Source of the DNA: Torpedo marmorata
Taxonomy: Eukaryota
DNA length: 64,000 nucleotides
Direction: 5' to 3'
NCBI GenBank assembly: GCA_977017645.1
Contig: OZ360254.1
Location: 35,030,001-35,094,000, forward strand
Under the pieces are notes generated by a model. That model did not search any database and had not been told where the DNA came from. It saw only the letters and a list, made by a program, of their open reading frames with translations. The position numbers were made by a program, and so were the translations under genes. This document shows positions 3,216 to 58,015 of this stretch, one piece after another; the stretch's first letter is position 1, and each line of letters begins with the position of its first letter.

Positions 3216-3615
3216 AGTAATTTGGAAAGCAAAAGAACGAAAGCACAGATTGCATAATTCCTTGGCAGTACATTGGAGCCTTCTTTTTGTCATATGCACA
3301 AGTGCAATGTACAGATGCACCAAAATTCTTACTTGCTGCAGTCAGGAAGGGAAGATACACCAAATTAAATTATCATACTATGCCAAGACAGAAAAAGAGA
3401 ATAAATATTCACAGATGCAATAAAAAAAATGACATTTTAATCATGTAGACAGATATTTTTGCTGGTCCTGAAATAGTTATCGTTCGGGTAATAAGGAAGC
3501 TCAAGAGCCTGATAGCTGTTGGAAAAAAACTTTTCTTGAACCTAGAGGTGCTGGTTTTCAGGCTCTGTACCTTCTGCCTGAAGGTAGCAGTGAGAAGAGG
3601 ATGTGACCAATATAA

Positions 3616-5116
3616 AAAAAAAACACAAATGCTGGAGAAACTCAGCAGGTCAAACAGTGTCTTTTATGTAGCAAAGGTAGAAATACATAACCGACGTTTC
3701 GGGCTTGAGCCCTTCATCAAAGTATGAGAAAATGCCGGCAGGCGTCCGAACAAAAGAGTGAGGGGGGAAGGGGGGGGAGTGGCAAAGGCAGGAGATGATA
3801 GGTGGAGAAAGGAGGGAGGGGACAGCAGCAAAGAGGGGGAGGAGGGATGGCTGGGTGGGTGGAGAAAAGCAGGAAGGACAGGTGAGGGGGGAGGGGAAGG
3901 AAACGACAAGCAAGTTTAGTGGAAAGCAGAAAAGTCAATATTAATGCCATCTGGCTGGAGAGTGCCCAGACGGAAAATGAGATGTTGTTCCTCCAATTTG
4001 CGGGTAGTCTGGGTGGGATAGTACATAAGGCCATGGACAGACATGTGAGTGTGGGAGTGTGACCCAGAATTGAAATGGCTGGCTACTGGGAGGTCGCTGT
4101 TGTTGCGGACGGAGAGGAGGTGCTCAGCAAAGTGGTCTCCCAATCTACGACCGGTCTCTCCGATGTAGAGAAAGCCACAAAGGGAGCACTGGATGCAGTA
4201 AATAAGTTCTCTGGATGTACAATTGAAGTGTAGTTTCACTTGGAAGGCCTGTTTGGGGCCCTGGACCGTGGTGAGGGGGGAGGTGTGGGCGCAGGTGTTG
4301 CACCTCCTGTGGGCACAGGGGAAGGTGCCGGGGGTGCGATGGGTGGGGAGGGATGAGTGCACGAGTGAATCGCGGAGGGAGCGGTCCCTACGGAAGGCCG
4401 AGAGGGGAGAAGGAAAAATGTGTCTGGTGGTGGGATCCTGTAGTAAGTGCCGAATATTCCGGCGGATAATGTGTTGGATGCGGAGAACTTATTTACTGCA
4501 TCCGGTCGGTGCTCCCTTTGTGGCTTTCTCTACATCGGAGAGACCGGTCGTAGATTGGGAGACCGCTTTGCTGAGCACCTCCTCTCCGTCCGCAACAACA
4601 GCGACCTCCCAGTAGCCAACCATTTCAATTCCGGGTCACACTCCCACACTCATATGTCTGTCCATGGCCTTATGTACTATCCCACCCAGACTACCCGCAA
4701 ATTGGAGGAACAACATCTCATTTTCCGTCTGGGCACTCTCCAGCCAGATGGCATTAACATTGACTTTTCTGCTTTCCACTAAACCTGCTTGTCGTTTCCT
4801 TCCCCTCCCCCCTCACCTGTCCTTCCTGCTTTTCTCCACCTACCCAGCCATCCCTCCTCCCCCTCTTTGCTGCTGTCCCCTCCCTCCTTTCTCCACCTAT
4901 CATCTCCTGCCTTTGCCACCCCCCTTCCCCCCTCACTCTTTTGTTCGGACGCCTGCCGGCATTTTCTCATACTTTGATGAAGGGCTCAAGCCCGAAACGT
5001 CGGTTATGTATTTCTACCTTTGCTACATAAAATACACTGTTTGACCTGCTGAGTTTCTCCAGCATTTGTGTTTTTTTCTTCAACCACGGTGTCTATAGAT
5101 TTTTGGGTTTTACTCC
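3616..5116. mobile_element. Penelope-like element: inverted pair of GIY-YIG/3' ends (3616-4482 minus, 4483-5116 plus)
   Basis: ORF LIYCIQCSLCGFLYIGETGRRLGDRFAEH...PVA.HF...KLEEQHLIFRLGTLQPDGIN is a PLE GIY-YIG endonuclease with a Cys-rich linker. 15-bp TSD ATGTGACCAATATAA at 3601-3615 and 5117-5131. Confidence 0.9.
4968..5008 (+). ncRNA. Minimal type I hammerhead-ribozyme-like motif (PLE-associated)
   Basis: CATACT-TTGATGA-A-GGGC TCAA GCCC-GAAA-CG-TC-GGTTATG: core boxes, stem II, palindromic ACGT in place of stem III, and a bulged stem I. Core has U rather than C at position 3. Confidence 0.6.
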
Positions 5117-5546
5117 ATGTGACCAATATAACTTTGCAACATCGTTTTGGAAGAGTAAATGTCCAAAAGGTCACTCCAACATGGGCAATTTGATTTTCTG
5201 TCCTCTGTTGCAACCCTTGCAAGTCAATAGGAAATACAAGACTGATCTTGTCCAAATCTGGAACATCCTTACTGGAAACAGGTGTAACTGAGTCAGCTTG
5301 CTTCACAGCAGGTTGGGTAGAGGCTATCATTCAATTCAGGCATTCATTCAATAATTAAGATAGCATTGCAGCTCAACAAGACCAACAACATCTTTCCTCA
5401 TATCTTAGATCTGGTTTACCAGTTTCACTCAAGTCTGGGGCCTCGTAGCCAAAATGATAGGTGTCTTGCTGTGCCTGATTCATAGACACCACCTAAAACA
5501 GAGCACATAGACCCTTCCCCACAAAGCTCTTTCTGTAGAGTGATTA

Positions 5547-6159
5547 CACTGGACAAAAATGCTTTCAAAAGGTTTGCTTCCTGAAAGAGAATTGGGGATT
5601 ATGATAGACAACGTCAAGCTGAACACAAAGATAATTTCAGATTTGCTGTATCACAGAGGATGTTGGAGAAACATTAAATTAACTTTTATTGAATTTAGCA
5701 TGTTTAATCACATAATGATGCTGACACATTGTGTTAGTTCAACTGACCTAAAATGTTTTGCCGCTGATTTTCATTTGTACTCAGCATCTGATGCCTCTCG
5801 TGTCAGTGTCTAACAATAGTCAGCCAGCATTAATCGATTCCAGTTGCCCTGATACCGCTTTTCCATGGTCGCAATGTCCTGGTGAAACCTTTCACCGTGT
5901 TCGTCACTGACTGCACCAAGATCAGCAGGGAAGAAGTCCAAGTGCGAATGCAGAAAATGAATTTTCAATGACATGTTGCACTTCATGGTTTTGTATGCGT
6001 GAAGTAGACTTAAAATATGACAGGAAATCACAAAAATAGGTTATATCTAAACAATGGTACATGTTTGGAAAATTTTAAGATGATTTTCATGATCAGCAGC
6101 CCAAAATCCATAAAATACACCCAAAAGTGTTCAGGAAGCAAAATCTTCATTGTCCAGTG
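5547..6159 (-). mobile_element. Non-autonomous Chapaev3-like (CMC) DNA transposon
   Basis: TIRs CACTGGACAA...TTGTCCAGTG; internal transposase C-terminal remnant CNMSLKIHFLHSHLDFFP.DLGAVSDEHGERFHQDI..MEKRYQG; second copy at 46655-47256. Confidence 0.75.
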
Positions 6160-9100
6160 TTTCCAGTAGGAAATTCAACTTTTAACTCTCCCCACTTCTT
6201 TCCCCCTTTATACATGTAATTTTACCCATTTTCTGTTAGTCTTGATAAAGATTTCAGACCAGAAACGTTGACTGGTGATTTCTACCCTTGACCTGTCGAG
6301 TTTATCCAGAAATCCTTTGCCTGGCTTCAACTACACGTGCCTAGCTTTATTTTTCAACCAGAGGCGGCTGACTTGTACAGCAAGGGCTCCTGCACATCAA
6401 CTGCTTCTCGAACTCAAAAGAACCCATGGTCAGTGAAACAAAAACACAGAACTTAATAGAAAACACAAATTATTAATCAATTGGAAAAGGAATTTGCATC
6501 CAGGAGCAGATTTAAAGTAGCACAGAAACAAGTGAATGAAGCTGAGTTCACCTTTGATCTTCTCCAAACATTTTAAGCAATAAATTCCCTAACAACCTCC
6601 AATGCCGGCAGTCTGTACCAACATGACAGGGCTAAAGAGCCAGTAAGGCTGCACACATGTGCAAGGGGAGCCAACCTTAAAATTACAAAGAAAAGCAATT
6701 AAGCAGTAATCGTTAGCTTCTGTTTAAGATGAAGTAGGCAATAACAAGTAAAATGAAACTATAAAACAAGTTATGATTGTTCATTAAATGAAAACTCACC
6801 TGCAGCTCGTTATTAGTGGATTTCTTCCCACTAAATCAAAGCAAGCAGCTACTGTTGGAACCCAAACAAATCAATTTGCTGAAACTCACAGGAGACCATA
6901 GTCTAAACTTCAAAAAGTCGTGATTTGCACATGTGGTCATCTACAGACATGCAAAATGGTCAGTCTCAAAAAGTGATCTATCACAACCAGACACCTAAAC
7001 AAAAAAGTTTAAAATGTCTTGCTTTGGTTCAAGGCTGTGTTAACATCTCCAACTGTGCCATCCTCAATCCCAATGGCCACTTCCTTCAGATCTTTTAAAA
7101 AAGCGAAGTCAAGTGGCTTTGATGTTGTAGTGGAAGACAGAGCCAAACACTTTGTGCAGAAAAGCTTGTTTGCAATCAGAGGACAAAGACTGTTATTTAG
7201 CCAATAAACAATTCTTAACAATGAAGGCTGTTAAAACAATTTGAACGAGAGTATCTTAGCAATCTTCTATTTCCCACCCTTTGTTTACTTTTATTATTCA
7301 TTTATCACCCCCAGGATGTGGCATTCCTAAACACCATTCCCTTTTTCCCCAAAACTACATTATTCACAATACATACAACCGAGACATCGTTCTCTACGTT
7401 CATTGTATCACCAGTTCAAAACACTCTTGCAATTGCCTCTGAATAGGATGCCCGTGCTAGACCATTTGAGAGATTTAAGAGACAACTACCTTGCTTTGAG
7501 TCTAGTCACTTCTGTGCAAGGGTGGCAGAATTCTTTTGATATACATTGGTGAATATAGTAATTTTGTGGTAATCAATACCAATTATTGGCCGTTCTTTTA
7601 AAAATGCAAAATCGGCATTATTAAATTTAAATTCCACAGCAAGATTTAAATTTGTCTCTGGGTTGCTTTCATAGCTCTCTAGGTTACTTGCCTGATAAGC
7701 ACTGTCTGATTGTACCATATTTAAAAGTATAAAAAATTTTTTTTTTTTTTTAAAAAGAGTGATTGAGTTTTTCCTGTGCCAATTGCCATTTGGACATTCA
7801 TTTTTAGTAAACAGGAACTGCATGAGCCACAAGTAATTATGCTGTTTCCTGGATAAAATCTCTCAGACTTTTTTCCTCTATTCACCAAAAGTCAAATCTT
7901 CCCATTTCTTCTCCCACTCCCCACCCTCTACCATACTCCTTCCACGGTACTAGTTCCAGAATCACTTGTCTCTCAACAAGCGTGTCATTTCCCCATTCCT
8001 AACACCATCCTAGTGAATCAGCATCTAATTAAGACAGAAATGCTGGAGAAACTCAGCCAGTCTCGCAGCATCCATTGGAGGTAAAGATACATTACCGACG
8101 TTTCGGGCCTGAGCCCTTTAACATCTAATGACGCTAATGTAACAGAGGTACATCCAGCCCCAAGATGAATTATGGTAGGAACAGCTATATATTGCCATGT
8201 TAAAACACCTCTGGTGAGACAAGCAAGAACCATTTAGGTTTCTTGGAATACACCGTTCAATTATCATTGTCAGGTTAGTTGTATGGATACTGCAATTAAT
8301 GGCCAAGCCAAGGAAGTAAGGGTTCCTTGCATCCCAAAGTCAGTCAGGATATTTGCTTTTGTTTTCAAGCCAGAGTACCACAAAGTTGACTCTGATCTCC
8401 AGACAAATGGACAAAGATTATCACCATCATAAAATCAGAATCAGAATTTATTGTCATGAACAAGTCATGAAATTGATACTGAATACAGTTAAACAAGAAA
8501 GCCTGGAGATGTTGGGGTCAAGTGCAATACACAAACGTTGGTTATCATTTACTTCCTATGGATGCTGCATGACCTGCTGACTTTCTCCAGCACGTTTGTG
8601 TAGATGCTAGATGCATTTTCCAGCTCTGTGAAATTATGTTCAGGCACAAATTAATCTTTTTTAAGAGGATTAAGCAAAGACATGCCTCCAGTTTAACCAG
8701 TGTGGCTATGTGCCGAGTCTGCATTGGTCACTCTTCTAATGTTTGTTAGTGCACCATTCACACACTAACCCTTTCAGAATTGCCTCTTGTCACCCACCCA
8801 TGCATAAAAATAGCCTGTGAAAGCACCCTTATGCAAGGTAGGTCCGCTTCTATAGAAAGTGAGGATGTGTCATGAGGGAGCCGTCTTTTTTTTTTTTGCC
8901 AACATGAAGTTGAGAAGATAGTACCTGTACTCGAAATGGAGATTCAACCAATGAAGATACAGCACCATGACAATACTTCCACAAGAACCAGGGCATGTAC
9001 AGTAAATCAATGTACTAAGCCTCAGAACTTTTAGTACAATTTCCTCACCTCATATCAAGTTACTCTAAGAAAATTTTACATCCAGTATTCTGATGAAGGA

Positions 9101-10120: not shown

Positions 10121-10412
10121 TCCATGTACAGAGCCCCCCCCACCCCCCCCCCCCCGTTTGCTGCTGTGCCCTCCCTCCCTTATCCACCTATTACCTCCTG
10201 CCTGTAGGACCGTGCTCCTCCCCCGCCCCTCCCCCCCAACATTTTGTTTGGGCACCTGCCTACATTTTTCTCATACCTTGAAGGGCTCAAGCCCGAAACG
10301 TTGGTTTATGTATCTTTATCTTTGCTATATAAAGTACGCTGTTTGACCTGCTGAGTTTCTCCAGCATTGTGTTTTCACTTCAACCACGGTGTCAGCAGAC
10401 TTTTGTTTTACT
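10121..10412 (+). mobile_element. PLE 3'-end fragment
   Basis: Homologous to 39270-39549; 12-bp TSD CTCTGCTGAAAA at 10109-10120 and 10413-10424. Confidence 0.85.
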
Positions 10413-10889: not shown

Positions 10890-11709
10890 CAATAAATTGG
10901 CCGTTCAGTGTCCCGGTTAAAGAAGCCGTTTTTGCAGTTCACTCTGGGTCAATGTTAACCGGGACACTGCGTCCTTTCACATTCATCACAAGGCATCCCC
11001 GGGGATAGGGGAGTTTATCCTCCACCGGTGACGTCTGAGTGACGCATCGAGCGATGGTGGACCTGCCCTAAATCCTGATCATGTACAGCACAGTATGAGC
11101 CCTGTTGTTGTGCCGATCTATATAAATCTTTATAAATTTATAAAGGACCGTGGGAAAGTTGTAGCTGCAATAGCGGACAATTTATAAAGACCATGGGAAC
11201 AATAGCGCACAATTTATAAAGACTGTGGGAAAGAGTGATGGCGGACCTGCCCTCCCAGAATTCCGTGCGGCAGAGAAAGCGCTGTATGCACGGAGCACTC
11301 ATGGAGGGGTTTCTCCGCCGTACGGAATTCTGGGAGGGCAGGTCCGCCATCGCTTTCTCTCTCTCCCGCTGCGACTTTCCCACGGTTCTTTAGAAATTTA
11401 TAAAGGTTTATGTAGGTCGGCAAAGTTTATACCTTCTTTTTAATCTTTTGTTTCCTTCACGTTCCTGCACTCACGCAAAAACGTCATCAAAGCGTCACTA
11501 CTTTGTCCCTGGATAGTAAGTGTCCTTTTCACACTGTGCTAATCGGCATGCAGGCGTCAGTTGACGCCGGGGATGAGAGTAGGGGTCAAGGCTGTCCATC
11601 CCCGGCGTGATTTGACGCCTGCATGCCGATTAAATCGCTTACACACTGGACCCTTAACCAGTAAATTGGCCGTCAATTACTAGGACAAGGTGCCAGTGTG
11701 AAAGGGGCT
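10890..11709. mobile_element. Hairpin-rich non-autonomous DNA transposon, probably PIF/Harbinger-like
   Basis: Right end CAGTGTGAAAGGGGCT|A; repeated TTTCACA(C) motifs; several nested inverted repeats. The left terminus is not resolved. Confidence 0.55.
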
Positions 11710-12150: not shown

Positions 12151-15100
12151 TCAGAATCCGAATTTATTGTCATGAACAAGTCATGAAATTCGGTGTTTTG
12201 CGGCAGCATCATAGTGCAATTAACATTCATATTAGCCATTCTAACGACATTACTATAAAAATTATAAACAATAGTGCACGAAAAGTAAGGCAGTGTCTTT
12301 GGTTCACTGATTATTCAGGAATCTGATGGCAGCGGGGAAGAAGCTGTCCTTGTGCCGTTGAGTGCTCGACTTTAGGCTCCTGTACCTTTTCCCTGATGGA
12401 AGCAGAGTGAAGAGGGCATGGCCTGGGTGGTGGGGGTCCTTGAGGATAGAGGCTGCTTTTTTAAGACACCGCCTCATGTAGATGTCCTCGATGGAGTGAA
12501 GTTTGGTGCCTGTGATGTCACAAGCCGAGTTAACAACCTTCTGGAGTTTACTCTTGTCCTGGGAGTTGGCGCCACCATACCAGGCAGTGATGCAACCAGC
12601 CAGAATGCTCTCCACGGTACACCTGTAGAAGTTTACGAGAGTCTTTGGTGACATACCGAATCTCCGCAAACACCTCACAAAGTATAGCCGCTGACGAGCC
12701 TTCTTTGTGATTGCATCCACGTGGATGCTCCAGGACAGATCCTCGGAGATGTTGACACCCAGGAATTTGAAGTTCTTGACCCTCTCCACGACTGAGCCCT
12801 CGATGAGGACTGGGTCGTGTTCCCCTGACTTCCTCCGGAAGTCCACAATCATCTCCTTGGTTTTGCTGACGTTGAGCTCAAGGTTGTTGTCATTACACCA
12901 TTCAACGAGCTGATCTATCTCCCTCCTGTACGCTTCCTCATTGCCGTTTGTGATTCTGCCAACAACTGTGGTGTCATCGGAAAACTTGTATATGGCATTG
13001 GAATTGTGCCTGGCCACACAGTCATGAGTGTATAACGAGTAGAGCAGTGGACTAAGCACGCATCCTTGGGGTGCGCCTGTGTTGATAATCAGTGAGGAGG
13101 AGACGTTGTTTCCAATTCGTACTGACTGTGGTCTTCCGATGAGAAAGTCAAGGATCCAGTTGCAGAGTGGGGTACAGACCTAGAGTTTGTAGCTTCTTGA
13201 CCAGCACTGAGGGAATAATGGTATTGAAGGCCAAGCTGTAGTCGATGAAGAGCAACCGTATGTATGAATTGCTGTTTTCGAGGTGATCCAGAGCTGAGTG
13301 GAGAGCCAGCGATATTGCATCTGCTGTGGAGCGGTTGTGGCGATAGGCGAATTGCTGTGTGTCCAGATCTTTGCTTAGGTATGTGTTAATTCTGGCCATA
13401 ACCAGCCTCTCAAAGCATTTCATCACAGTAGAAGTTAGTGCTACTGGGCGGTAGTCGTTGAGGCAGCTCACACTACTCTTCTTGGGTACCGGGATGATTG
13501 ATGCCCTTTTGAAGCAGGTGGGAACCTCTGACTGCCGCAATGAGAGGTTGAAAATGTCCGTGAACACTCCGGCTAGTTGGTTGGCGCAGATTTTCAATAC
13601 CCTGCCAGGTACGCCGTCAGGGCCTGACGCCTTGCGAGGGTTCACCCTCTTGAATGATGTTCTGACGTCGCCCTCAGAGACAGATATCACAGGGTCCTCA
13701 GCCTTTTCAGGGATTCTAGTAGGCACTGTTTTGTTCTTCTTCTCAAAGCGGGCATAGAAGGTGTTCAGCTCATCGGGTAGTGAAGCATCACAGCCGTCTA
13801 TAGTGTTCGCCCTCACTTTGTAGGCTGTAATGGCCTGCACTCCCTGCCATAGCTGGCGTGTATCTGTCTCTGTCTCTAGCTTCCTTCGGAATTGCCACTT
13901 TCCTTCAGAGATGGCCTTCCGCAGGTCGTGCCTGGACTTTTTGTAAAGATCCCGGTCCCCGGCCTGAAACGCCCTTGTTCTCGTCCTCAGCAGGTTGTGA
14001 ATTCTTTGATTCATCCAGGGCTTCTGGTTGGGGAACACCCGGTACTTGCGCGTGGGCACACACTCATCCACGCAGGTCTTGATGAAGTCAGTGACACCTG
14101 TTGCATATTCATTTAGGTTTATGGCTGAGTGCTTGAATATGTTCCAGTCCACCGATTCAAAGCAGTCCTGCAGACGCTCCTCCGCCTCCCTCGACCACAC
14201 TTTCGCCGTCCTCTCCACTGTTGCTGTGGTCTTCAGTCTCTGCTTGTACGCCGGGAGTAGAAGTACAGCCAGGTGATCAGACTTGCCGAAGTGCGGTCGT
14301 GGTATGGCTCGGTATGCGTTCTTCACGGTGGTGTAGCAGTGGTCGAGTGTGTTGGTTCCCCTGGTCTTGCAAGTGATGTGTTGGTGGTAGTTTGTCAGTG
14401 ACTTCTTCAGATTGGCCTGATTGAAGTCTCCCACAATGATCGGGAAGGCATCAGGATGTGCTGTCTCATGGCTGTTTATCACAGTGCTCATTCCCTCCAG
14501 TGCCAGCCTGACGTTAGCCTGGGGCGGAATGTACACTACGACCAGGATGATGGCGGTGAACTCCCTCGGCAGATAGAATGGGCGACACTTGATTGCCAGA
14601 TGTTCCATGTCGGGGGAGCAGGACTGGGACATGACCGTCACGTCTGTGCACCACGATGAGTTGATGATGACACACACACCGCCTCCCCTGGTTTTTCCAG
14701 ACGCCGGTGTTCGGTCAGCGTGATGGAGGGTGTAGCCCTTGGGCTGTAGCGCCGTGTCTGGAATGTCCTTGTTTAGCCACGTTTCTGTAAAGCACATCAC
14801 GCAGCACTCCCTGATGACTCTCTGATGTTGAAGTCTGGCTTGGAGTTCATCAAATTTGTTCTCCAAGGATTGTACGTTGGCCAGGAGGATGGTAGGGAGC
14901 GGAAGCTTCAGGTCCCCGCGTCTCAGCTTGACTTGTAGCCCCCCTCTGCGTCCACGTGGTCAGGACTTCTTTACCTGGCCCTTGGGTCCGCTGCCGGTAG
15001 GTCCTGCAGTGTTTAAATGGTCGGTGCGCTGTCCCTTTAAATCCTGCGCGATTTGTAATTGTGTTGAGCGCCTGCTGTTTGCGACTCCCGAAGTTTAAAT

Positions 15101-15394
15101 GGCCCGTTCTCTGGCCGTTTAAAACTCCCGCGGTGTTGCAGCAGTACTTGCGTGAGTTGTTTAAAGGTCCCGCGGCCCGACGGAGACTGCTGCTGTACTT
15201 GCGTGAGTTGTTTAAAGGTCCCGCGGTGCCGATTCCTAGTTCTGCCAGCGATCTTTGGACATCCACGTTGTTGGGTAAGTTTGCTTTTGTGTTCCTTGTT
15301 TTTTGTCTGATTTTTAGAAGTTCTGAACGGGAATATTTGATTATTCCCGTCAGAGCTGCACGCAAAGAGTCGCCGGTGCAAGGCGCCATTTTTC
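12151..15394 (-). mobile_element. Near full-length Rex1/Babar LINE (subfamily A, TTCTGA tail)
   Basis: 5' AAAATGGCGCC; APE endonuclease (FTETWL, GDFN, TLDHCY, SDH) plus RT in ORF 13148-14866; C-terminal part in 12304-13059 ([28 protein letters not shown]). Frameshifts near 14990 and 13180. Confidence 0.92.
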
Positions 15395-20584: not shown

Positions 20585-20832
20585 CTAAAAATAAACGCAC
20601 AAAAAAAAAATTGAACAACCGAACCGTCGTCGGAGACCAGGACATACAGTTGAAGAACCAAATGAAAACAATATTCTGAAAATAAAATACTTGCAAAATG
20701 TGGTCCAAGCTTCCAAGAAATCAGATCAATATTACTGGTTTACAAAGTGAAAAATAATTTCAATTCCCAGCTTTCAACATACCAGTAAAGGAAACAACAT
20801 GCAAGAGAGCAAATTGTGAGCATGATGCTCAC

Positions 20833-22138: not shown

Positions 22139-22325
22139 GTGAAACAAAAGTTTGCAGACGCTGTGATTGGAGTAAAAACAAAAATGCTGGAGGAACTCAG
22201 CAGGTCACACAGCGTCCATAGTAGGTAAAGACACATAACCAACGAAGGGCTCAGGCCCGAAACGTCGGTAATATATCTTTACCTCCTATGGACGCTGCGA
22301 GACCTGCTGAAGTTCCTCCAGCATC
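22139..22325. mobile_element. Palindromic PLE-end derivative with a central hammerhead-like remnant
   Basis: Arms ATGCTGGAGGAACTCAGCAGGTC / GACCTGCTGAAGTTCCTCCAGCAT around GAAGGGCTCAGGCCCGAAACGTC; imperfect TSD AATT(G/T)AAGCA. Confidence 0.7.
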
Positions 22326-22792
22326 AATTTAAGCAGATACATTGCTCACGAGAAATGATTCCTGTAACATCACAATGGCAACTCTAGCTGTAAATACCAG
22401 CCACCCTCCTTCATCAGAAACCACAGCAGTTAGCTTTAAGCAGTTTACTTGTACAAACAACCATTCCGACTCACGAGAGAATAACTAATTCAAAGCAATT
22501 TGGAAAGCATGAAGACCATTTTTGGCCACTCAGCCCATTCTTTCCACCCATGAAGTACAACTTAACCTGCCATGGACTCCACCCAAGCCTTGAATAGAAG
22601 TGGCATGGCATTTACCCTCTATAGCATAGAACATTACAGCACATTTCAGGCCCCTCGATGTTGTGCTGACCTATATATTCCTTCCAAAAAAAGTACTAAA
22701 CCCTTCCTACCTCGTAACCCTCTATTTTCCTTTCATCCATGTGCCTGCCTAAGAGTCTCTTAAATGCCCCTAATGTTTCAGCCTCCACCACT

Positions 22793-25885: not shown

Positions 25886-26974
25886 AGATCATGAAACACA
25901 ACAACCTGCACAGTCATGCAATATTCTCAGTGTGTTACGTCAAATATGCTGCGCACCCTGACTACTATTAATGACATCGCTGGAGCTTAAAATTCTCTGC
26001 AATTGCAAACATGAAAATTGCACTGATTTTTTTTTTCTCACCACAGTTGAAGCACACACACACCATCCTCCAAAAATAACAAGGTTCCAGGTTATGATCA
26101 AAGAAAGTGCAATTTAGACCTTGTTAAAGTTTCAAATGGCAAATGCTTTTAGCAAGGCAATTTAAACATCGTACAAAACTAACCCAGATTGAAAAAGGAG
26201 TTCAAGGTGGATTAGCACAACAATCACCTTAGTGCCACAGCCTTTAACCCTCCTTGACATCTCCCATTACCATCAAGCATCAATCGTGGCTCGGTTTGTC
26301 GTACTCTCGCAAGGTTGAAGTTCAAGGCCAACTCAGAAATGTCGGTAATATATCTTTACCTCCTATGGACGCTGCGAGACCGGCTGAGTTCCTCCAGCTT
26401 TTCTGTGTTTTTACAAACTGACGGCTGCACATCATCCACTGCACCAGTGCCACATTGGATATGATGAATGAGAGAGGTACCACACAAACCCAATCTGTGT
26501 GCCAGTCCTATTCCAGATTTAGCAAATTGAAAGCGACACAAGAAACCACAAACCACTCTGTTTATCTTGGAAATTTCGGCTTTGAAGTGGAAAGGCTTTG
26601 TTATGTTTTTTTTTGCTCGCTGCCACAGCCTCAATTGTCTCGAGACTAAGTTGCGTCAGTCCCCAATTGTGGGATTGGTACATCCGGACGTGGGTGAAGG
26701 AGGGGAATGTCTGATGGCATTTTTATTTTCACACTGAGATAATCAAGACCCTCAGTTACTGGAGATACACAGGAGATGCTGGAATTGGAGGCCAAACACC
26801 ATCTTCATAAAGGGTTCCAACACGAAACAATGACTTTTCTTTTTCTACCACCGATGCTGCTCATCCCACTGACTTCCTCCAGCAGATTCTATTAAGTTTA
26901 AATCCACAGTTAAAATCCACTTTCCACAGAGCTGTTTGTTTTGGATACTTAAAGGAAGCCTCTCGGAAATGTCT

Positions 26975-32035: not shown

Positions 32036-32369
32036 GGCCGTCCGACGACGCCGCCCCGCGCCTGTGTCCGTCAGCCGGCAACGCCCCGCCCCGCGCAGCC
32101 GAAACGTCAATCTCCCCTTGGCCCGCCCTCTGCTTCTGCCATTGGCTGCTGACCTGTCGATCAGGAAATGATCCCACCCCCCACAGCTCCAGGAGAATTA
32201 ATAATGTCTATTATTGCAGATGTACTCAATCATGTTCATGTCTGAAGCAGTCTGGGCTTGGACATCTTAAATCATGAGCACACAGGATCTGTTTCCAGCA
32301 AAGATCCCTTCAAAAAGTTATCTTGGCTGAATATCAGGTCTAAAGGAACCAGATTCAGATTCAGATTTA

Positions 32370-32552
32370 ACAGTGTCTTTTATGTAGCAAAGGTAGAAAT
32401 ACATAACCGACGTTTCAGGCTTGAGCCCTTCTTCAAAGTAATGTTATGTATTTCTACCTTTGCTACATAAAAGACACTGTTTGACCTGCTGAGTTCTCCA
32501 GCTTTTGTGTTTTTTACTTCATCCACGGTGTCTACAGATTTTCGTGTTTACT
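32370..32552. mobile_element. Short inverted PLE-end insertion in the microsatellite tail of a Rex B element
   Basis: ~39-bp inverted arms (32370-32408 and 32442-32480); 16-bp TSD TTCAGATTCAGATTTA at 32354-32369 and 32553-32568. Confidence 0.8.
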
Positions 32553-38560: not shown

Positions 38561-38851
38561 TTCACGATGTGAGTTGACATGGGTTTAGACCTTGTGCTCA
38601 GTGAGGATGTAACCATTAACCTCAACTCTCTGGGCCAGGGTACAATAAACAAATAGAAAAAACAAAGCAGGCATTGGTTCCGGCTGTGATCAATAGACAG
38701 GGATCCTTAGTAGATAAACTTTCATTATATAGCTGTTGGAGCAAAAAGATAAACTCCTCGAAGAACACAGCAGGTCAAGCAGCATCTGTGGAGGTAAAGG
38801 GATGGTTGATATTTCAGGTTGGGACCCTGCATCAGGACTGTGGTGTTAAAA

Positions 38852-39549
38852 CAGCCCTTCCAAGTGAAGCAAAACTTCACTTGTGAATCTGTGGGAGTCA
38901 TCTACTGCATCCGGTGCTCCCGTTGTGGCCTTCTCTACATCGGAGAGACTGGACGCAGACTGGGAGATCACTTCTCTGAGCACCTTCGCTCTCTCCGCAT
39001 CAGCAACAGGGGTCTGCCAGTGGCCACCCATTTCAAATCTGCGCCCCACTCCTGCGCTGACATGTCTGTCCATGGCCTCGTCCTGTCAAAACAAGACCAC
39101 CCATAAATTGGAGGAGCAACACCTAATATTCCGTCTGGGCACTCTCCAACCGGATGGCAATAGCATCGACTTCTCGTGTTTCTGCAAGACCACTCCCCAT
39201 TCTCCCTCTCTTCCCCATCCCTCTGTCACCTTTCCTCCAGTTCCCCACCCCCTTACTTCTCCATTCACAGAACTATCCCCCCTCCCCCTGTTTGCTGGTG
39301 TGCCCTCCCTCCCTTATCCACCTATTACCTCCTGCCTGTGGGACTGTGCTCCTCCCCCTACCCCTCCCCCACCATTTTGTTCGGACACCTGCCTACATTT
39401 TCCCATACCTTGATGAAGGGCTCAAGCCCGAAACGTTGGTTATGTATTTTTATCTTTGCTACATAAAGTACACTGTTTGACCTGCTGAGTTTCTCCAGCT
39501 TTGTGTTTTTACTTCAACCACGGCGTCTGCAGACTTTCGTGTTTTACTC
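38852..39549 (+). mobile_element. PLE GIY-YIG/3' fragment, second subfamily
   Basis: VIYCIRCSRCGLLYIGETGRRLGDHFSEH; hammerhead-like motif at 39404-39444; 14-bp TSD CTGTGGTGTTAAAA at 38838-38851 and 39550-39563. Confidence 0.9.
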
Positions 39550-40392: not shown

Positions 40393-41539
40393 AAGTAAAC
40401 ACGAAAATCTGTAGACACCGTGGTTGAAGTAAAAAACACAAAAGCTGGAGAACTCAGCAGGTCAAACAGTGTCTTTTATGTAGCAAAGGTAGAAATACAT
40501 AACCGACGTTTCAGGCTTGAGCCCTTCATCAAAGTAATCTCTCTTCAAATGATTTGGACAAATTACAGATTTATTTCAGCAAATTTACTCATTTTTTTTC
40601 TCTATCCCCCCTGGCAATTTTTATAAGACTATTCAAAATCCAGACAGGTTGCATCGGCTGTGGCACAAAATTTCCAGCTGACAACGTCACATAGCAAAGG
40701 ACCCAGCCTGGCTGGGTATGGAAAGTTAAAACATTTAGCATGTGATGCACGAAATACTCCACAGATGAAGAGGTTGGAGACAATATGGATCATTATTCCA
40801 TCTCATTCTACTGTAGCTTAACTAATATTAATTTGTGGGTAACACACATTCCAAAGCAAGCATTTGCCTGCAAACCTACCCAATAGATACATGAGATCAT
40901 CAGCCCCTGAAGCCTTTCTGACATTCAATTAGATCGTGATCGTGATCGTGATTTTCCAGTGCCATTATCCCCTCCTTTCTTCCATACCCTTTCCTTTTGA
41001 CAACCTTGCACTTTCAACCACAATGCCAGAACCCCTAGTTTCCACAAACCCTTAAGAGGAATAGTGTCAGATTTTCATGACCATTTTTTTGAAAAAAGTG
41101 CTCATTAATTTTACACCTAAGTGATTCAGCTCAGAATGGTAGATTTTGTGCCCTTCGAGATGTCCTCAATGACAGGAAATAGCTTCCCTCGATTCTACTG
41201 AATCTCCATCACTGAAGCACTTTGATGAGATCAGTGTTCTATCTCCTAAAGGGAATCTAAATCGAGTTTTTGCAACCGCATAATTTAAAGCCTTGGTACC
41301 ATTCTGGTGAATCCAAACTATACTCTTTCTAAGGTTAATATATCCTGTCCAAAAATGAATGCATTTCAGATGGGTTTCAGACACTGAGGATACTGAGGCT
41401 TTGATGAAGGATCTAAACATTAAAGTGGAATTTTGTCACTTCAGTATTCAAACTGCACTGCGAACAGGCCAAGATTTCATTCGGTTTCCTGCTTGTCTTT
41501 TATACCATTTGTACATGGACGTCCAAATCCAACTATTGT

Positions 41540-44444: not shown

Positions 44445-45088
44445 TGTACATCCAGAGAACTTATTTACTGCATCCGGTGCTCCCTTTGTGGCTTTCTCTA
44501 CATCGGAGAGACCGGTCGTAGATTTGGAGATCGCTTTGCTGAGCACCTCCTCTCCGTCCGCAACAACAGCGACCTCCCAGTAGCCAGCCATTTCAATTCC
44601 GAGTCACACTCCCACACTCACATGTCTGTCCATGGCCTTATGTACTATCCCACCCAGACTACCTGCAAATTGGAGGAATAACATTTTATTTTCCGTCTGG
44701 GCACTCTCCAGCCAGATGGCATTAACATTGACTTTTCTGCTTTCCACTAAACCTGCTTGTTGATTCCTTCACCTCCCCCCTCACCTGTCCTTCCTGTTTT
44801 TTTTCACCCACCCAACCATCCCTCCTCCCCCTCTTTGCTGCTGTCCCCTCCCTCCTTTCTCCACCTATCATCTCCTTCCTTTGCCACCCCCCCCCCTTCC
44901 CCCCTCACTCTTTTGTTCGGACACCTGCTGGCATTTTCTCATACTTTGATGAAGGGCTCAAGCCCGAAACGTCGGTTATGTATTTCTACCTTTGCTACAT
45001 AAAAGACACTGTTTGACCTGCTGAGTTTCTCCAGCATTTGTGTTTTTTTTACTTCAACCACGGTGTCTACAGATTTTCGTGTTTTACT
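44445..45088 (+). mobile_element. PLE GIY-YIG/3' fragment
   Basis: Near-identical to 4483-5116; hammerhead-like motif at 44940-44980. Confidence 0.9.
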
Positions 45089-47932: not shown

Positions 47933-48897
47933 ACATGAACTGTTCCATCTGAGTAAAGAATCCAAAATCAGAATTTATTGTCATGAACATGTCACGAAAC
48001 TTGTCGTTTTGTGGCAGCATCACAGCGCAAACAATGCTGTAAATTATGTTTCAAAATAAATAAATCGTACAAAAAATAGGAGAAAGTAAGGCAGTGTCTG
48101 TGGTTCATTGTCCGTTCTGAAATCCGATGGCAGAGGGGAAGAAGCTGTCCTTGTGCCGCTGGGTGCTCGTCTTCAGGCTCCTGTACCTTTTTACCGATGG
48201 TAGCAGAGTGAATTCCATACTTCTACACCATGCAGGGAATAAATTTCAATATAATCTATTGTTGAGGCTGAGTCAATGGAACTATTAGGATAGGTGGCTA
48301 AAACGAAGTTGAAGGTAGGTTTGGAAATGTACAGCATCGCAAAATGTCTTCACACGGTGGGTATGTAAAGGATATTTCTTCAAGTGGGAGAATCCAGAAA
48401 CAGGGTCACCCAGTAGGGTAAAGGTTTTTTTTCTCTCAGAATTCTCTCAATTCTCCTCTGAATTGAGGAGAATTCGTACTGTTTGTTTGAAGGACTTTAC
48501 TGTTCCTTTCCCGTTCTTGCTCCTCGTTCCTTGTCACATCTGTCACTCTGGATCGGAGGATGGGTGACTGGAAGTGGATGCTCAAAAGCACCAGCGAGGA
48601 TAGTTGCCAGCATTAGAATAAGTAAGACTGTCTAATTGCCATTGGCTGCGAAACCTGGGCCACTGATACTGTCACAATGAAGCTTAAGGTTGTGGAAACA
48701 GAATCTTTGGAAATTTTAGTAAAAACACAAAAATGCTGGTGGAACTCAGCAGGTCACACAGCGTCCAGAGGAGGTAAAGATACATTACTGATGTTTTTGG
48801 CTTGAGCCCTTCTTCAAGTACCGAAACATCATTTATATATCTTTACCTCCTCTGCACACTGCGAGACCTGCTGAGTTCCTCCAGCATTTCTGTGTTT

Positions 48898-50657
48898 CAA
48901 GTCAAGTCAAGTCACCTTTATTTGTCGTTCATTACCATATACACAGTAAGACGAGATAGCGTTTCTCCAGGACCATGGGCAGATGTACATAAATATCATA
49001 ATACAATTAAAAAAACTATAACATGCTAATACACATATATATCTAGAAATTGAGGAGCCTGATGGCTTGGGGGAAAAAACTGTTGCACAATCTGGACGTA
49101 CGAGCCCGAGTACTTCGGTACCTCCTTCCAGATGGCAAAAGGGAAAAAAGTTTACCAAAGGGGTGTGAGAAGTCCTTCACAATGTTATTAGCCTTCCTCC
49201 TGCATCGTGTGTTGTAGATGTCCGTCATGGTGGGAAGAGAGACACCAATAATTTTCTCCACTGACCCCACTATCCTCTGCAGGGTCTTTCGGTCCGAGAT
49301 GGTACAGTTTCCAAACCAAGCGGTGATGCAATTGCTCAGAATACTCTCAATACATCCCCTGTAGAATGTAGTAAGGATAGGGGTTAGAACGTGAACTTTC
49401 CTCAGCCTTCTCAGGAAGTAAAGACGCTGCTGGGCTTTCTTGACTATAGAACTGGTGTTGAGGGACCAGGTGAGACTCTCCGCCAAGTGCACTCCAAGAA
49501 ACTTGGTACTCTTTACAACCTCAACGGTAGAGCCGTCCATGGTCAAAGGAGAATGATCCCCCTGGGCCCTTCTGAAGTCGACAACCAACTCTTTCGTTTT
49601 ATTTACATTCAGATGCAGGTTGTTGGCTCCGCACCATTCCAGTAGCGACTGCACCTCATCTCTGTATGCTGACTCATCGTTCTTGCTGATAAGGCCCACC
49701 ACGGTCATATCATCAGCGAACTTGATGATGTGATTCGAGCTGTGTTTTGCTGTACAGTCATGAGTCAGCAGAGTGAATGGCAATGGACTAAGCACACAGC
49801 CCTGGGGAGCCCCCGTGCTCAATGTAATGACCTTAGAAGTGCTGTTTCCAATCCGGACTGCCTGAGGTCTTCCCATCAGGAAGTCTAGGATCCAATTACA
49901 GAGGGTGTTGTTTAGGTCCAGCCCACTCAACTTCCCTATCAGGTACTGAGGTATGATCGTGTTGAATGCCAAGCTGAAGTCAATAAACAGCATGCGAACA
50001 TATGCGTCCTTATTTTCCAGGTGGGTGAGGGCTAGGTGGAGGGTGGTAATGATGGCATCATCTGTGGAGCGGTTTGATCTATATGCGAACTGTAGGGGGT
50101 CCAGTGAGGGGGGCAGCAGAAGCTTGATGTGCCCCATGACGAGCCTCTCGAAGCACTTCATGACAGTAGATGTGAGTGCGACAGGGCGGTAGTCATTGAG
50201 GCAGGACACCGTCGACTTCTTCGGCACGGGGATGATGGTAGCGGCTTTGAAGCACGTTGGAACCTTGGCACCGCTCAGGGAGATGTTAAAGATGTCGGTG
50301 AGAACATCAGCCAGCTGGGCCGCACATCCCCTGAGCACTCTGCTGGGAATGTTATCTGGCCCAGCAGCTTTCTGTGGGTTAACCTTGCTTAACACTCTCC
50401 TCACGTCGGCCACTGTAAAACACAGCACCTGATCATTTGGAGGAGGGGTGGTCTTCTTTGCCGCTACAATACTTTTCGCCTCAAAACGCGCGTAGAAGTT
50501 GTTCAGTGCATCTGGGAGGGAGGCATCACCAGCACAGTCAGATTGTGCGGTCTTGTGGCTGGTGATATCTTGAATGCCCTTCCACATGCGTCGCGTGTCC
50601 TTGCTGTCCTGAAAGTGACTCTGAATTCGCTGGGCATGTGCATGCTTTGCCTCCCTT
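48898..50657 (-). mobile_element. Rex1/Babar subfamily C (TTGAC tail) with an open 514-aa RT ORF (49043-50587)
   Basis: [23 protein letters not shown] and KFADD motifs. Inserted into a palindromic PLE-end element (48720-48897 plus 50658-50697). Confidence 0.92.
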
Positions 50658-50945
50658 TTACTACAATCACAGCGTCTGCAGACTTTCGTGTTTCACTTTG
50701 GATATTTTAAGGCAGGTGTAGACTAAGAAAGTGGCAAAAAGTTCTGGAGGCACAAAAACTGCAGATGCTCGAATCTTGGACAAACAGCAGCAGAAGGAAC
50801 TCAACGGGTTGATAAAGGGTTCCGACCCGAAACATTGACTGACCATTTCTACCCATGGATGCTGCCTGACTCGCTGACTTCCTCCAGCAGATCATTGTTC
50901 AATGGTGAAAAGTTAGATTCAAGATTCCTTTATTGTCTTGTAATA

Positions 50946-53995: not shown

Positions 53996-56015
53996 TTACA
54001 TGAGAGACTGCATACGTCGTCTCTGAAGGGTTCCAGCCCACAATGTAGACAATTCCTTTTTCTCCCACTGATGCTGCTCGACCCGCCGAATTCCTCCAGC
54101 AGATAGTGAGTGTGGCTCCTGATGTTGTGAACTTGATATGATTCTGCCCTGACGTTACACCGTTCCCTCTGCAAGGTTCAGAGTATCAACCAAAATATTG
54201 TGCCGATCTCTGAAGTGGGACGGGAATTCCTGACCTTCTCATTTAGAAGTAAGTGCCCCTCACTGAGCCGCTACAGATATCTGAGCCACCTACTAAATAT
54301 GACCAAAACCAGCGTCATCGCAACCCTAAAATAGAAAACTCCTGGTCACATCTTAATTTGTGCAAATTCAGCTGCTTCCTTGCCAATCTGTCACGGACAC
54401 ATCCCCAAGATAAAACCTCGTACCACACATCCCTGGAACAGTTTTCTTTTCATTTTTGGCACAGTCAGTTTGCTGCGCTGCTGGGACATGCTTGTGAGGA
54501 GAGTTGATGCTGATAGAATGTTTCCCCTCCTGGGGAATCAAGAACCAGGGGGCACAGCTTCAGAAGAAGAGGTCACCCATTCATGGACTCCCAGGAACTT
54601 GAAGGCACTGACCTTTTCCGCCGTTGTCCTGTCAATGAATATGGCAACAAAAGGTACAGTCATGTTGTAGGCAATGAAGGGAGGCTGACTCTGTCAGTGT
54701 CCAACTGTCGATTTTCATCCATGATTCAAGGTTCCTTTATTGTCATGTAATAAAGACAGTGCAATATTGCACAGAATTTGCTTTCATCTTCCGTAAGGCA
54801 GACAGATTCGCCATCGGCAGAAATTGCCTGAAGCGCCTCTTACAGTCAGAGAAAGAGAAGCAAAAGAGAGTCCCCCCAGAGTCACCGAGTGTCCGTGGAT
54901 TGGCTTCCAAAGCTCCCGCAGCCTCCGCAGCCACACAGAGTCCCGTCCAAACCATCGGCAACCCGAGCTCCAGATCCGAACCTCCGACACGATCAGGAAC
55001 CCTTCAGCGCCCTCTCGCATCCTGGTTCCGATCCCTGGTACCCCTTCAGCCAGTCTCAAGCCAGTCGCCAGCAGTCCGCAGCCTGCGTGGGATCCTCGCC
55101 TCAAATCACCAGCAGCCCGCCGCCTGTGGGTTCTTCAGCCGCAGAGCCCCTCACTGTTCTGCCGCCGTGGTCACTGTCATGTGGGTCGACTCCTCGGCTT
55201 CTCCTCAAATGGGGAGGGGGGGGTGTTCTGTTGTCCTGCGCCAATCCTCTGCTCCTCCGGAGTCTGCAACCCCTCGTGGCAGCTGTCGATCTTAGGCGTC
55301 GCCATCTTGGGTCCAGACCCCGCGGTCGCGGGATTTTAAATAAAACCACCGTCGGCTCCAGTTACAGGCCGTTTAAAGCCTGTACGGAACTGACAGCAGT
55401 CGGACTGCCACATGCTACCACATCCGAGCAGACAGGTGGAAAATAGTCCCTCGGTAAAAGGGGCACCAAAACCAATTGACTCACAGCACTGTGTTCTAAA
55501 TGATGGGTCTCGGATGTCAGATGTTTTCTTTTCGTCTGCTACTCGACAGAATTGTTAGAATATTTTTCTGGTAAGATCTGTGCTGAACTCCATCTGTGAC
55601 ACATGTTCTTTATTGATAAAGTGCCAAACAGATGTAAGGATTATTGATTGTACAAAGGAGCAAAAGAGCACGACAAATATAAAAATGGGCTAATTTTCAT
55701 CCTCCGGACATTTTGACCCAACCAACAAGTTTGAATTTGTTTCAATAGAGACAATTTGAGAAGGCCTCTTTTTTTTCAGTAATGACATCCAATTATTAAC
55801 CCTGTTTCATCCTAGAAGCCAACCGAATTTCTCTTTCCGAACAAAAATGAAGCCAAATGTTTCTCATTTCCTCTTCACATTGTTGAAAGCTCAAATATAA
55901 GGAGCAGGAGGAACGCCAGGCCCACGCTGATCAAGACCATGATTAACGGCCACCATTATGTTAACCTTCTGCAGGAGCTCTATCGAGAGCATCCTTGCCG
56001 GCTGCATCACAGTGT

Positions 56016-56262: not shown

Positions 56263-58015
56263 AATTTTTTTTAATGGATCGGAGGTTAATCCACAGGACC
56301 ATAAGAGTGGCAGAGAGGATCACTGGAGTCTTCATCCCCCCCCCATCGACGTGATCTACTGTGATCATTGTCTGAAGAGGGCGCGCAAAATCATTAAGGA
56401 CCCCTTCCACCCCGCACACAGCATCTTTCAGCTGCTCCGGTCGGGGAAGAGATACGGGAGTATCAGAGCTAGCACCACCAGGCTGAGGAACAGCTTCTTC
56501 CCATGGGCAGTGAGAATGCGGAACGACAAAAGGAACTGCTCACACTAACCATCCGGGACTCTCTACACAAAACAATATTTATTTATTTATTTGTATAGAT
56601 GAAATACTTGTCCTGCATATGTGTATTTGTCTGTATGTGTGTTACGTCTGGTTGTGTGTCTGCGTGTTTTTGCATCGAGGACCGGAGAACATTGTTTAGT
56701 TGGGTTGTACTTGTGCAATCGGATGACGACAAACTTGACTTGGCCCATATCGATCACCAGATCCCCAGACTCTTCAGCATCGAAAACCAGTCAATTACGC
56801 CCAGACTTCAAGGCTAGCATAGTTAGATTTTTGGACACTAGTGGAAGTAAGGACTGTGAAGAACAAGCTAGGTTGAAGCCAAGAATAAATCAGCCATGAT
56901 CTCACTGAATGGCAGAGCAGGCTTGGGGAGGTGGGGAACAAATGGCTTTGCCCAAAACTTGGCTAAAGTGTGGAGTTCACAACCAAAGGGACTCTGGAGG
57001 CAAACAATATAGTTGTATTTCAAGGGCAAGCCAGATAGTACATAAGGAAGGAAGAATCAGAATCAGAATTTATTGTCATGAGCACGACACAAAATTTGTT
57101 GTTTTGCGGCAGCAAGAAAAAGAAAATGTCAAAGTAAGGTAGTGTCTGTGGTTCATTATTCATTCAGGAATCTGATGGCAGCGGGGAAGAAGCTGACTTA
57201 GTGCCGCAGAGTGCTTGTCTTTAGGTTCCTGTACCTTTTTCCTGATGGTAGCAGAGTGAAGAGGGCATAGCCTGGGTGGTGGGGGTCTTTGAGGATAGAG
57301 GCTGCTTTCTTAAGACACCGGCTCTTGTAGATGTCCTCGATGGAGTGAACTCTGGTGCCTGTGAAGTCACAGGATTCAATGACTGAACATATTGGAATAA
57401 ACCTGGGGTTCCAATAGCCGTGAAGACAGCAACATCATACAGGATCCCATTTTGTGCCTCGATAGCTCATTCCACCCCTGCCTCCTGGCTACTAATTCAA
57501 TTCAGCACTGCCCCTCACTGAGCTGGTCTTCGCTCCACTTTGGTGTCCGATATCATTGAAGGAAACGGGTAACTTGTCCACACAGGTGTTGGAGTTCCAT
57601 GTGGACATCCAACCAGCTCACTGCCTCAGCCGCAGCTCAGATGACAATACTCAGTGCTCAGATTTGTAACAGCCTAGTCCCAATTACCCAATTAAGACCT
57701 GGGCTTTAAAAAAAACTCTCTGGTTCAGTTTGAGGGAGGGCTACACTGCAAGAAGTCCCTCTTTCAGATGAATCATTCAACTTGAATCCTGTCTGCTCTA
57801 AAAACACAATGCTGGAGAAACTCAGCAGGTCAAACAGTGTACTTTATATAGCAAAGGTAACCAACGTTTCGGGCCTGAGCCCTTCATCAAGGTATGAGCA
57901 AAATGTAGGCAGGCGCTCAAAGTTCTGCAGAGTCTGTCCATCGCAGGTTTTAAATATTTAATAACATAAACTAAACTCATCAGCGGTGTTCCACCATGTG
58001 CTGAGTAATGCACCT

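What the first reader, a model, noticed from the sequence alone, without database searches (positions are those of the whole stretch)
4968..5008. Recurrent minimal hammerhead-ribozyme-like motif in the ends of Penelope-like elements
Seen: CATACY-TTGATGA-A-GGGC TCAR GCCC-GAAA-CG-TY-GGTTATG, best preserved at 4968, 39404 and 44940 (+) and 3686, ~40500 and ~57860 (-), and decayed at ~6243, 8095, 10279, 22245, 26805, 32410, 38815, 48790 and 50809. The 50809 copy has a compensatory stem II (GGGT..ACCC instead of GGGC..GCCC). Known: PLE pseudo-LTRs carry minimal type I hammerheads with a palindromic stem III that cleave as dimers. Inference: this is a variant with U at core position 3, an extra A after A9 and only ACGU as helix III, present at roughly 15 copies in 64 kb.
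Basis: partly seen in the sequence, partly recalled or inferred. Interest (0 to 1): 0.8.

Follow-up and report, generated by a model that had tools for sequence, protein, structure and literature searches.

The report
Wobble-core hammerhead in Penelope-like retrotransposon
The repeated motif is the small self-cutting hammerhead RNA that Penelope-like jumping genes are known to carry, but the most abundant family in this genome has a weakened core pair, which makes it a useful natural test of whether these elements need to cut their RNA at all.

Summary
The motif is real: 11 window matches against 0 by chance. It is the minimal type I hammerhead in the pseudo-LTR of a Neptune-like Penelope element (pLTR-ORF-pLTR; one copy has an intact 1158-aa RT/GIY-YIG ORF). 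The extra A after A9 and the ACGU-only helix III are standard for this published class, not variant features. The odd feature is U3 facing G8. One pattern gives 172,305 U3.G8, 10,141 C3-G8, 7,060 U3-A8 and 2,140 C3.A8 sites genome-wide. The first three states each mark a supported family, and helix I covaries between families. The copy at 50809 is U3-A8 and the one at 38815 is C3-G8. None of 100 tail-anchored copies starts at the cut site; 30 start in the 5' strand of helix I, so uncleaved RNA is the likely template. U3.G8 already appears, without comment, in one row of Cervera and De la Pena's Fig. S3. Best reading: a maintained but slowed hammerhead; cleavage is untested. This scan noted U3-A8 relatives on other DNA before, but not this sequence.

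The parts
4968..5008 (+). Minimal hammerhead: helix I 5' strand 4968-4973, core U3 4974 to A9 4980 (G8 4979), extra A 4981, helix II 4982-4993, G12-A14 4994-4996, ACGU 4997-5000, C17 5001, predicted cut 5001/5002, helix I 3' strand 5002-5008
4480..5115 (+). 5'-truncated Penelope-like end: last codons of the GIY-YIG domain, pseudo-LTR, hammerhead and long tail
3614..4488 (-). Inverted partner copy (head-to-head with 4480-5115): GIY-YIG fragment 3916-4488, hammerhead 3686-3726 (U3 at 3720), short tail
44455..45067 (+). Young-family pseudo-LTR copy, hammerhead 44940-44980, U3.G8
38900..39527 (+). Older subfamily copy, hammerhead 39404-39444, U3.G8, C2.1, U17
40414..40536 (-). Short copy that begins in the 5' strand of helix I; U3.G8, U11.1
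57799..57898 (-). Copy with U3.G8 (position 3 at 57890), U17, deletion in the tail
32362..32532 (.). Inverted pair: short copy 32362-32440(-) starting in helix I (U3.G8, A7, U11.1) and tail-only copy 32443-32532(+) starting one base 3' of the predicted cut
48715..48906 (.). Inverted pair of an older family; 48817(-) is U3.G8 with A7
10143..10393 (+). Pseudo-LTR fragment with a deletion in the core
8029..8120 (-). Copy truncated inside the core
22157..22328 (.). Inverted pair, both truncated inside the motif
50809..50902 (+). Copy of the old U3-A8 family (stem II GGGU/ACCC, helix I 3' strand GACU)
6236..6334 (+). Decayed copy with U3-A8 core and UAGUC/GACU helix I
38735..38840 (-). Decayed copy of an old C3-G8 family (position 3 at 38835)
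26803..26897 (+). Heavily decayed old copy, core not assignable
54024..54105 (+).

Best explanation
The motif is the minimal hammerhead of a Neptune-like Penelope retrotransposon (shown by sequence, context and covariation). It lies 180 nt upstream of the start codon in the 5' pLTR and again after the ORF. In the dominant families the tertiary 3-8 pair is a U.G wobble, inherited from the master elements (shown). The fold is still under selection (inferred from family comparison), but chemistry is probably much slower than with C3-G8 and needs the element's protein or a second copy to supply helix III (inferred from published work on other elements). Most insertions are made from uncleaved RNA: reverse transcription starts at one of two tail sites, runs through the cut site and often ends at the 5' strand of helix I, which is probably at or near the RNA's 5' end (copy ends shown, cause inferred). 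Slow cutting would then be a side or late step, such as removing the capped 5' tip, not a requirement for insertion.
For: Context: direct pLTRs of about 610 bp around the ORF in 7 of 7 full-length loci fetched, hammerhead at -180 or -179; RVT_1 and GIY-YIG hits, both just under Pfam's cut-off; C-x4-C-x2-C linker fits the Neptune/Nematis linker in PMC8557442. Inherited U3: 172,305 U3.G8 against 10,141 C3-G8 sites; U3.G8 in both pLTRs of all 7 full-length loci; 22 of 22 copies of the young cluster that were not picked by pattern. Fold kept: helix I was in no search pattern yet covaries (UA 27, CG 16, UG 8, other 7; GC 27, AU 15, GU 1, other 15 of 58); U3.G8 families with different tails differ at N7, N17, loop II and stems but share U4-G5-A6, G8-A9 and GAAACGU; with 3 and 8 masked, supported clades are 21 of 22 U3-A8, 19 of 20 C3-G8 and 25 of 32 U3.G8; 63 of the first 100 C3.A8 sites are C7-A8, as CpG decay would give. 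Slow: in a type III hammerhead all single and double core mutants except the C:G to G:C swap had low activity (PMC9901934); minimal hammerheads cut weakly even with C3-G8; the anole element's hammerhead cuts only with its protein and is dispensable for insertion in vitro (PMC11167929). Uncleaved template: 0 of 100 copies start at the cut, 2 start 2-3 nt 3' of it, 30 in helix I's 5' strand (hand tally); 1 of 30 within one base of the cut and 6 of 30 at -8 to -2 in an independent sample; 3' ends at +100-109 (29 of 56) and +135-144 (24 of 56), a 35-40 nt tail as published.
Against: No cleavage data. No RNA ends could be seen: all runs were contigs. Rfam finds no hammerhead. The monomer's best fold is a closed, inactive pairing (-11.8 against -7.7 kcal/mol) and the best dimer fold is not the double hammerhead. 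At copy level the 3/8 covariation in the old set is not significant (53 U-A, 36 U-G, 7 C-G, 4 C-A of 100; about 6 C-A expected if independent). Rows of alignment A1 were mostly picked by patterns that fix the core and part of stem II, so only helix I is an independent test, and related copies inflate the shuffle test. The intact-ORF copy also has U11.1 and A1.1 in both pLTRs, a sign of further slackening. Absence of copies starting at the cut could also mean that cut RNA is degraded or not used, whatever the rate.
Confidence: 0.5

Rival explanations
1. Catalytically dead relic: after C3U the sequence is kept for another job (internal promoter or initiator, protein binding, template recognition), and the hammerhead look is inherited.
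For: C3/G8 single mutants lose activity in published tests. Hammerhead mutants do not impair insertion in vitro and hammerhead-free Naiads thrive (PMC8557442). No copy-end signal at the cut. A subfamily adds G10.1.U11.1 (5 of 5 A7/UCAA-loop rows among the first 100; L154). An initiator-like pyrimidine-A-pyrimidine stretch overlaps helix I's 5' strand (consensus recalled, not tested).
Against: U3.G8 families differ only at positions that a hammerhead tolerates; helix I pairs change on both sides; a whole family has the compensated U3-A8 pair; the added U11.1 still pairs with G10.1.
Confidence: 0.3
2. Fully active ribozyme in its natural setting: the protein or a dimer makes up for the wobble, and U3 may even help by weakening the misfold.
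For: Natural C3, U3.G8 and U3-A8 copies of the young family give misfold energies of -14.2, -11.8 and -9.4 kcal/mol against -7.7 for the open core. A hemichordate PLE family has the same core. Tolerance of core changes depends on the surrounding elements (PMC2920678).
Against: Deep mutagenesis found low activity for such single mutants; helix III is only 4 bp between strands (-1.7 kcal/mol); almost all copies read through the cut site.
Confidence: 0.17
3. Chance likeness of a conserved repeat end to the hammerhead consensus.
For: No Rfam match; monomer folding z-score only -2.2.
Against: Position in the pLTR, sense strand, all class traits and near-identity of build to published PLE motifs; C3-G8 sister families; covariation lost when partners are slid.
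Confidence: 0.02

Closest known systems
Minimal hammerheads (min-HHR) in pLTRs of metazoan Penelope-like elements, Cervera and De la Pena 2014 (PMC4209133)
   Same: Type I, sense strand in both pLTRs, extra nucleotide after A9, G10.1-C11.1, palindromic 15.2-16.2 with no loop 3, short helix I, mostly solitary truncated copies, some inverted pairs; reported in fish Xena, Poseidon and Neptune elements.
   Different: Their descriptor and consensus have C3; here U3.G8 is the majority state, at 172,305 sites by one pattern against about 4,000-9,000 motifs in coelacanth and Xenopus. No cartilaginous fish is in their Table S1 or Fig. S3.
Saccoglossus kowalevskii family 1 min-HHR (same paper, Fig. S3, PLE-associated)
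   Same: U3 with G8 (UUGAAGAA), ACGU helix III.
   Different: One representative row; not discussed or assayed in the parts read; longer helix II.
U3-A8 min-HHR of Schistosoma Cercyon elements; natural U3-A8 hammerheads in Perreault 2011 (PMC3088659)
   Same: The old family at 50809 has this compensated core.
   Different: The finding's main family has the uncompensated wobble.
Poseidon_Ac hammerhead of the green anole, Frangieh 2024 (PMC11167929)
   Same: Hammerhead at the pLTR-ORF junction, two internal reverse-transcription starts giving a 30-40 nt tail, uncleaved RNA as template, no RNA-seq ends at the cut.
   Different: C3-G8 core; ORF starts inside the hammerhead there, 180 nt downstream of position 3 here; other clade.

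Membership tests
PLE minimal hammerhead (Cervera 2014) | Lies in both pLTRs of an RT + GIY-YIG element, sense strand | tested here: met
   7 of 7 full-length loci; Pfam hits below cut-off
PLE minimal hammerhead (Cervera 2014) | Core U4 G5 A6 N7 G8 A9 ... G12 A13 A14, A15.1-U16.1, H17 | tested here: met
PLE minimal hammerhead (Cervera 2014) | Watson-Crick pair between 3 and 8 (C3-G8 or U3-A8) | tested here: not met
   U3.G8 in the main family; met only in minor sister families. One published row shares the exception
PLE minimal hammerhead (Cervera 2014) | Extra nucleotide between 9 and 10.1; G10.1-C11.1 pair | tested here: met
   A9.1 in 79 of 86 rows; column 16/27 GC 43, GU 14, AU 1 of 58 (partly fixed by the search patterns)
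PLE minimal hammerhead (Cervera 2014) | Palindromic 15.2-16.2, no intramolecular helix III | tested here: met
   ACGU at 4997-5000; departures are mostly CpG-type
PLE minimal hammerhead (Cervera 2014) | Helices I and II with compensatory changes across families | tested here: met
   helix I is independent of the search patterns
Active hammerhead ribozyme | Self-cleavage 3' of N17 (as dimer or with protein) | not testable with these tools
   Only contigs available; copy ends give no signal at the cut
Rfam hammerhead families | Score above threshold | tested here: not met
   no hammerhead hit at E up to 5
Neptune clade PLE | C-terminal GIY-YIG with CX2-5CxxC linker after RT | tested here: met
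   the linker is shared with Nematis
Neptune clade PLE | RT phylogeny groups with Neptune references | not tested
   no reference set was fetched
Non-LTR retrozyme | Head-to-tail tandem units without an ORF, each with a type I hammerhead | tested here: not met
   window copies are solitary or inverted PLE ends; rare tandem cases elsewhere (L086, L088)

The most novel reading that the evidence does not exclude
The hammerhead sits at the very 5' end of the element's mRNA and acts as a protein-triggered decapping brake on the element. Lineages that weakened the 3-8 pair to U.G released the brake and expanded to more than 170,000 sites, while C3-G8 and U3-A8 families stayed over ten times rarer. 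The genome would then hold a natural three-step series (C-G, U.G, U-A) linking ribozyme rate to retrotransposon success.
Probability: 0.15. Interest if true: 0.7.

Novelty: new variant of a known kind. Interest (0 to 1): 0.38.

Why it matters
What the hammerheads of Penelope-like elements do is still open (PMC8557442, PMC11167929). Here the most successful family carries a core pair that in vitro work on other hammerheads predicts to be crippling, beside natural C3-G8 and U3-A8 relatives and an intact ORF. That allows a matched test of whether cutting is needed, tolerated or harmful. It also shows that searches demanding CUGA miss over 90% of these motifs in this genome. The class itself is known, and the core variant is already in one published alignment row, so the surprise is modest.

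Tried and rejected
Rfam scan: no hammerhead hit; miRNA hits are plain hairpins. Intron between the cut site and the start codon (donor- and acceptor-like letters in the tail): no GT-AG joint among the 15 joints shown of 146; not supported, not excluded. Expression and RNA ends: the runs are contigs and five of the six RNA labels are guesses; nothing can be said on level, strand or cleavage. State of position 3 in related organisms: no U-to-C row at that place among the 40 best-supported differences, 271 not shown; inconclusive. U3 as CpG decay or copy-level drift: rejected, the site is not a CpG and young-family C3 copies are about 6 of the first 100 C3 sites. Hidden C3 by a shifted register: possible where 2.1 is C, not in the youngest family where 2.1 is U. 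AUG in the core as start codon: rejected, it opens 17 codons and N7 varies; the ORF starts 180 nt further on. Pile-up of 5' ends at the cut: not found. Number and order of origins of U3: the tree has 125 columns, 68 of 118 forks open and no outgroup; not resolved. Double-hammerhead energy could not be scored as a nested structure (crashed; one search gives only unconstrained dimers). Literature search with shark terms returned only hammerhead sharks. Przybilski and Hammann 2007, the direct study of 3-8 exchanges, is not held.

Full report
1. Observation. The motif is at 4968-5008 as written. A 24-nt pattern has 11 matches with up to 3 mismatches in the window and none in 100 shuffles. A profile search recovers all listed sites and one more at 54024. 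Rfam gives no hammerhead hit at E up to 5.

2. Context. The copy at 4968 follows the end of a GIY-YIG frame and has an inverted partner at 3614-4488. Searching the genome (6.2 Gb; its repeats look to me like a cartilaginous fish, recalled and not tested) with the start of the ORF gave 40 scored matches of 2,485 candidates, 30 kept as loci. Seven of these 30 have a whole hammerhead upstream. I fetched those seven: all have direct pLTRs of about 610 bp around the ORF, with the motif 179-180 nt before the ATG and again after the ORF, U3.G8 at all 14 places. Six share a stop after codon 92 and are probably not independent. L154 has an unbroken 1158-aa frame and pLTRs 99.7% identical. It hits RVT_1 (E 3e-6) and GIY-YIG (E 6e-4), both under the curated cut-offs. 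The C-x4-C-x2-C linker fits Neptune or Nematis (PMC8557442, passages). No RT tree was made.

3. Anatomy against the known class. Cervera and De la Pena (PMC4209133; main text parts 1-2 of 4, supplement parts 1-2 of 3) define minimal hammerheads in PLE pLTRs, including fish Neptune elements. They list the extra base after A9, G10.1-C11.1 and the palindromic 15.2-16.2 as general traits. They describe U3-A8 in Schistosoma. Their Fig. S3 also has one PLE-linked Saccoglossus row with U3 and G8, which the text that I read does not mention.

4. The 3-8 pair. One CpG-tolerant pattern gives 172,305 U3.G8, 10,141 C3-G8, 7,060 U3-A8 and 2,140 C3.A8 sites; reversed-pattern controls give 0 to 3. The pattern fixes a GGG..CC stem II, so other families are missed. 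Of the first 100 C3.A8 sites 63 have C7, as CpG decay would give. C3-G8 sites look older: 2,141 match a stricter pattern without decay, against 76,690 for a narrower young-family pattern whose listed rows are 99 of 100 U3. In 86 rows not picked by pattern (344 kb plus flanks, truncated copies included, identical rows merged) the states are 47 U.G, 11 U-A, 11 C-G, 4 C.A and 13 other. In the old GGGU/ACCC set the first 100 of 2,510 are 53 U-A, 36 U.G, 7 C-G and 4 C.A by hand count, which alone does not show covariation. A tree of 122 copies (150 eligible, 28 young copies left out, positions 3 and 8 masked) has supported clades of 21 of 22 U3-A8 (holding 50809), 19 of 20 C3-G8 and 25 of 32 U3.G8; the rest is poorly resolved and many rows were picked by state. 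So U3.G8 is a trait of master elements, and it occurs on both sides of the deepest split.

5. Is the fold maintained? On 58 copies chosen by me from 98 listed representatives, 88.7% of cells pair, against 22-42% when partners are slid; 0 of 500 shuffles reach it. The core and part of stem II were fixed by the patterns, and copies are related, so the clean evidence is helix I: U-A 27, C-G 16, U.G 8, unpaired 7 at 2.2/1.2, and G-C 27, A-U 15, G.U 1, unpaired 15 at 2.3/1.3. Clusters made from the tail alone differ at N7, N17, loop II and stems and keep the rest of the core. Against: a subfamily with the intact ORF adds G10.1.U11.1 and A1.1.

6. Folding. The monomer prefers a closed fold in which the core pairs with the cut site (-11.8 kcal/mol, z -2.2); helix I plus II with an open core is -7.7. 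Natural C3-G8 and U3-A8 copies of the same family give -14.2 and -9.4, so U3 weakens the misfold. The best dimer folds are not double hammerheads, and the ACGU duplex is worth -1.7.

7. What copy ends say. 3' ends fall at +100-109 (29 of 56) and +135-144 (24 of 56) from position 3, like the two internal priming sites and the tail of the anole element (PMC11167929, parts 1-2 of 4). For 5' ends I read the first 100 of 19,780 tail-anchored matches by eye: 21 reach the edge or have internal deletions, 18 start in the 20 nt before helix I, 30 in its 5' strand, 14 in the core, 14 in helix II, 1 in GAAACGUC, 2 at 2-3 nt past the cut, none at the cut. The pattern's first letter under-counts long copies, and junctions are uncertain by 1-3 nt. 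A BLAST tally of 30 copies not picked by pattern agrees in kind: 6 at -8 to -2, 1 one base past the cut, 12 far upstream. Summed contig depth also rises at the motif's start in 4 of 4 runs. Inference: uncleaved RNA is the usual template, and its 5' end or a strong stop lies at helix I. Drosophila Penelope has an internal promoter with its start shortly upstream in the pLTR (PMC2377424, passages).

8. Expected activity. In deep mutagenesis of a type III hammerhead, core mutants other than the C:G to G:C swap had low activity (PMC9901934, passages; its supplement was listed, not read). C3G and G8C kill the anole motif, which cuts only with its protein and is not needed for insertion in vitro. 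U3-A8 is active (PMC3088659, section 8 and passages). A saltern variant with U3, G8 and a two-base insertion is mentioned in PMC7151607 (passages). Tolerance depends on context (PMC2920678, part 1 of 2). I found no measured U3.G8 rate: one search returned no paper, none on this point, and PMC1986816 is not held. PMC2837043 (passages) and the 2026 retrozyme preprint (part 1 of 5 and passages; supplements closed; it includes one cartilaginous fish) added nothing on U3.

9. Verdict. Identity as a PLE minimal hammerhead homologue is near certain. On mechanism: slowed but maintained 0.5, dead relic kept for another job 0.3, fully active in context 0.17. It works like the published class but fails its 3-8 Watson-Crick test, so I file it as a variant. 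In searches I found no paper that discusses a U3.G8 family, though the variant stands in one published row. Earlier notes of this scan cover U3-A8 motifs in other genomes and nothing like this sequence. Interest 0.38; the brake model has probability 0.15 and is confounded by family age.

Noticed in passing
window 11234-11354: 121-nt near-perfect inverted repeat (MITE-like) that hits two miRNA models well below their gathering scores, next to a 32-nt tandem duplication at 11168-11231.
   Followed up: no
window 12304-16017, 20826-21287, 22774-24561, 34329-35969, 49043-50692, 58260-59426, 60740-61444: Many long, young-looking LINE-type RT frames of at least three subfamilies; family name not tested.
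   Followed up: no
window 29287-31568: 35-bp minisatellite, 66 copies, 95% matches, with strong GC skew.
   Followed up: no
window 36920-37786: 288-aa frame resembling the C-terminal end of a LINE ORF2 with a Cys/His motif (label recalled).
   Followed up: no
L148-L153 (G000 C79, C979, C317): Six full-length elements share a stop after codon 92 and sit in a tandem satellite (38-bp unit in L150); they were probably multiplied with their surroundings.
   Followed up: partly
L086:1611-9998: Three head-to-tail units of 2.4-3.2 kb, each a C3-G8 hammerhead end followed by a 23-bp minisatellite; a candidate dimer-competent array.
   Followed up: partly
L088:4639-4712 (-): Two U3.G8 motifs head-to-tail 46 nt apart, a natural tandem dimer for assay.
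   Followed up: no
window 4967-4973 and other families: The 5' strand of helix I reads as an initiator-like element in young and old families alike (consensus recalled) and coincides with the peak of 5' ends.
   Followed up: partly
window 5004-5030 and 5049-5065: Two tail hairpins: the first takes the 3' strand of helix I and competes with the hammerhead in the young family; the second lies in the part of the tail best kept across families.
   Followed up: partly
L150:3061-3675: 57-bp coding tandem repeat in the N-terminal part of the PLE ORF, with copy number that differs between loci.
   Followed up: no
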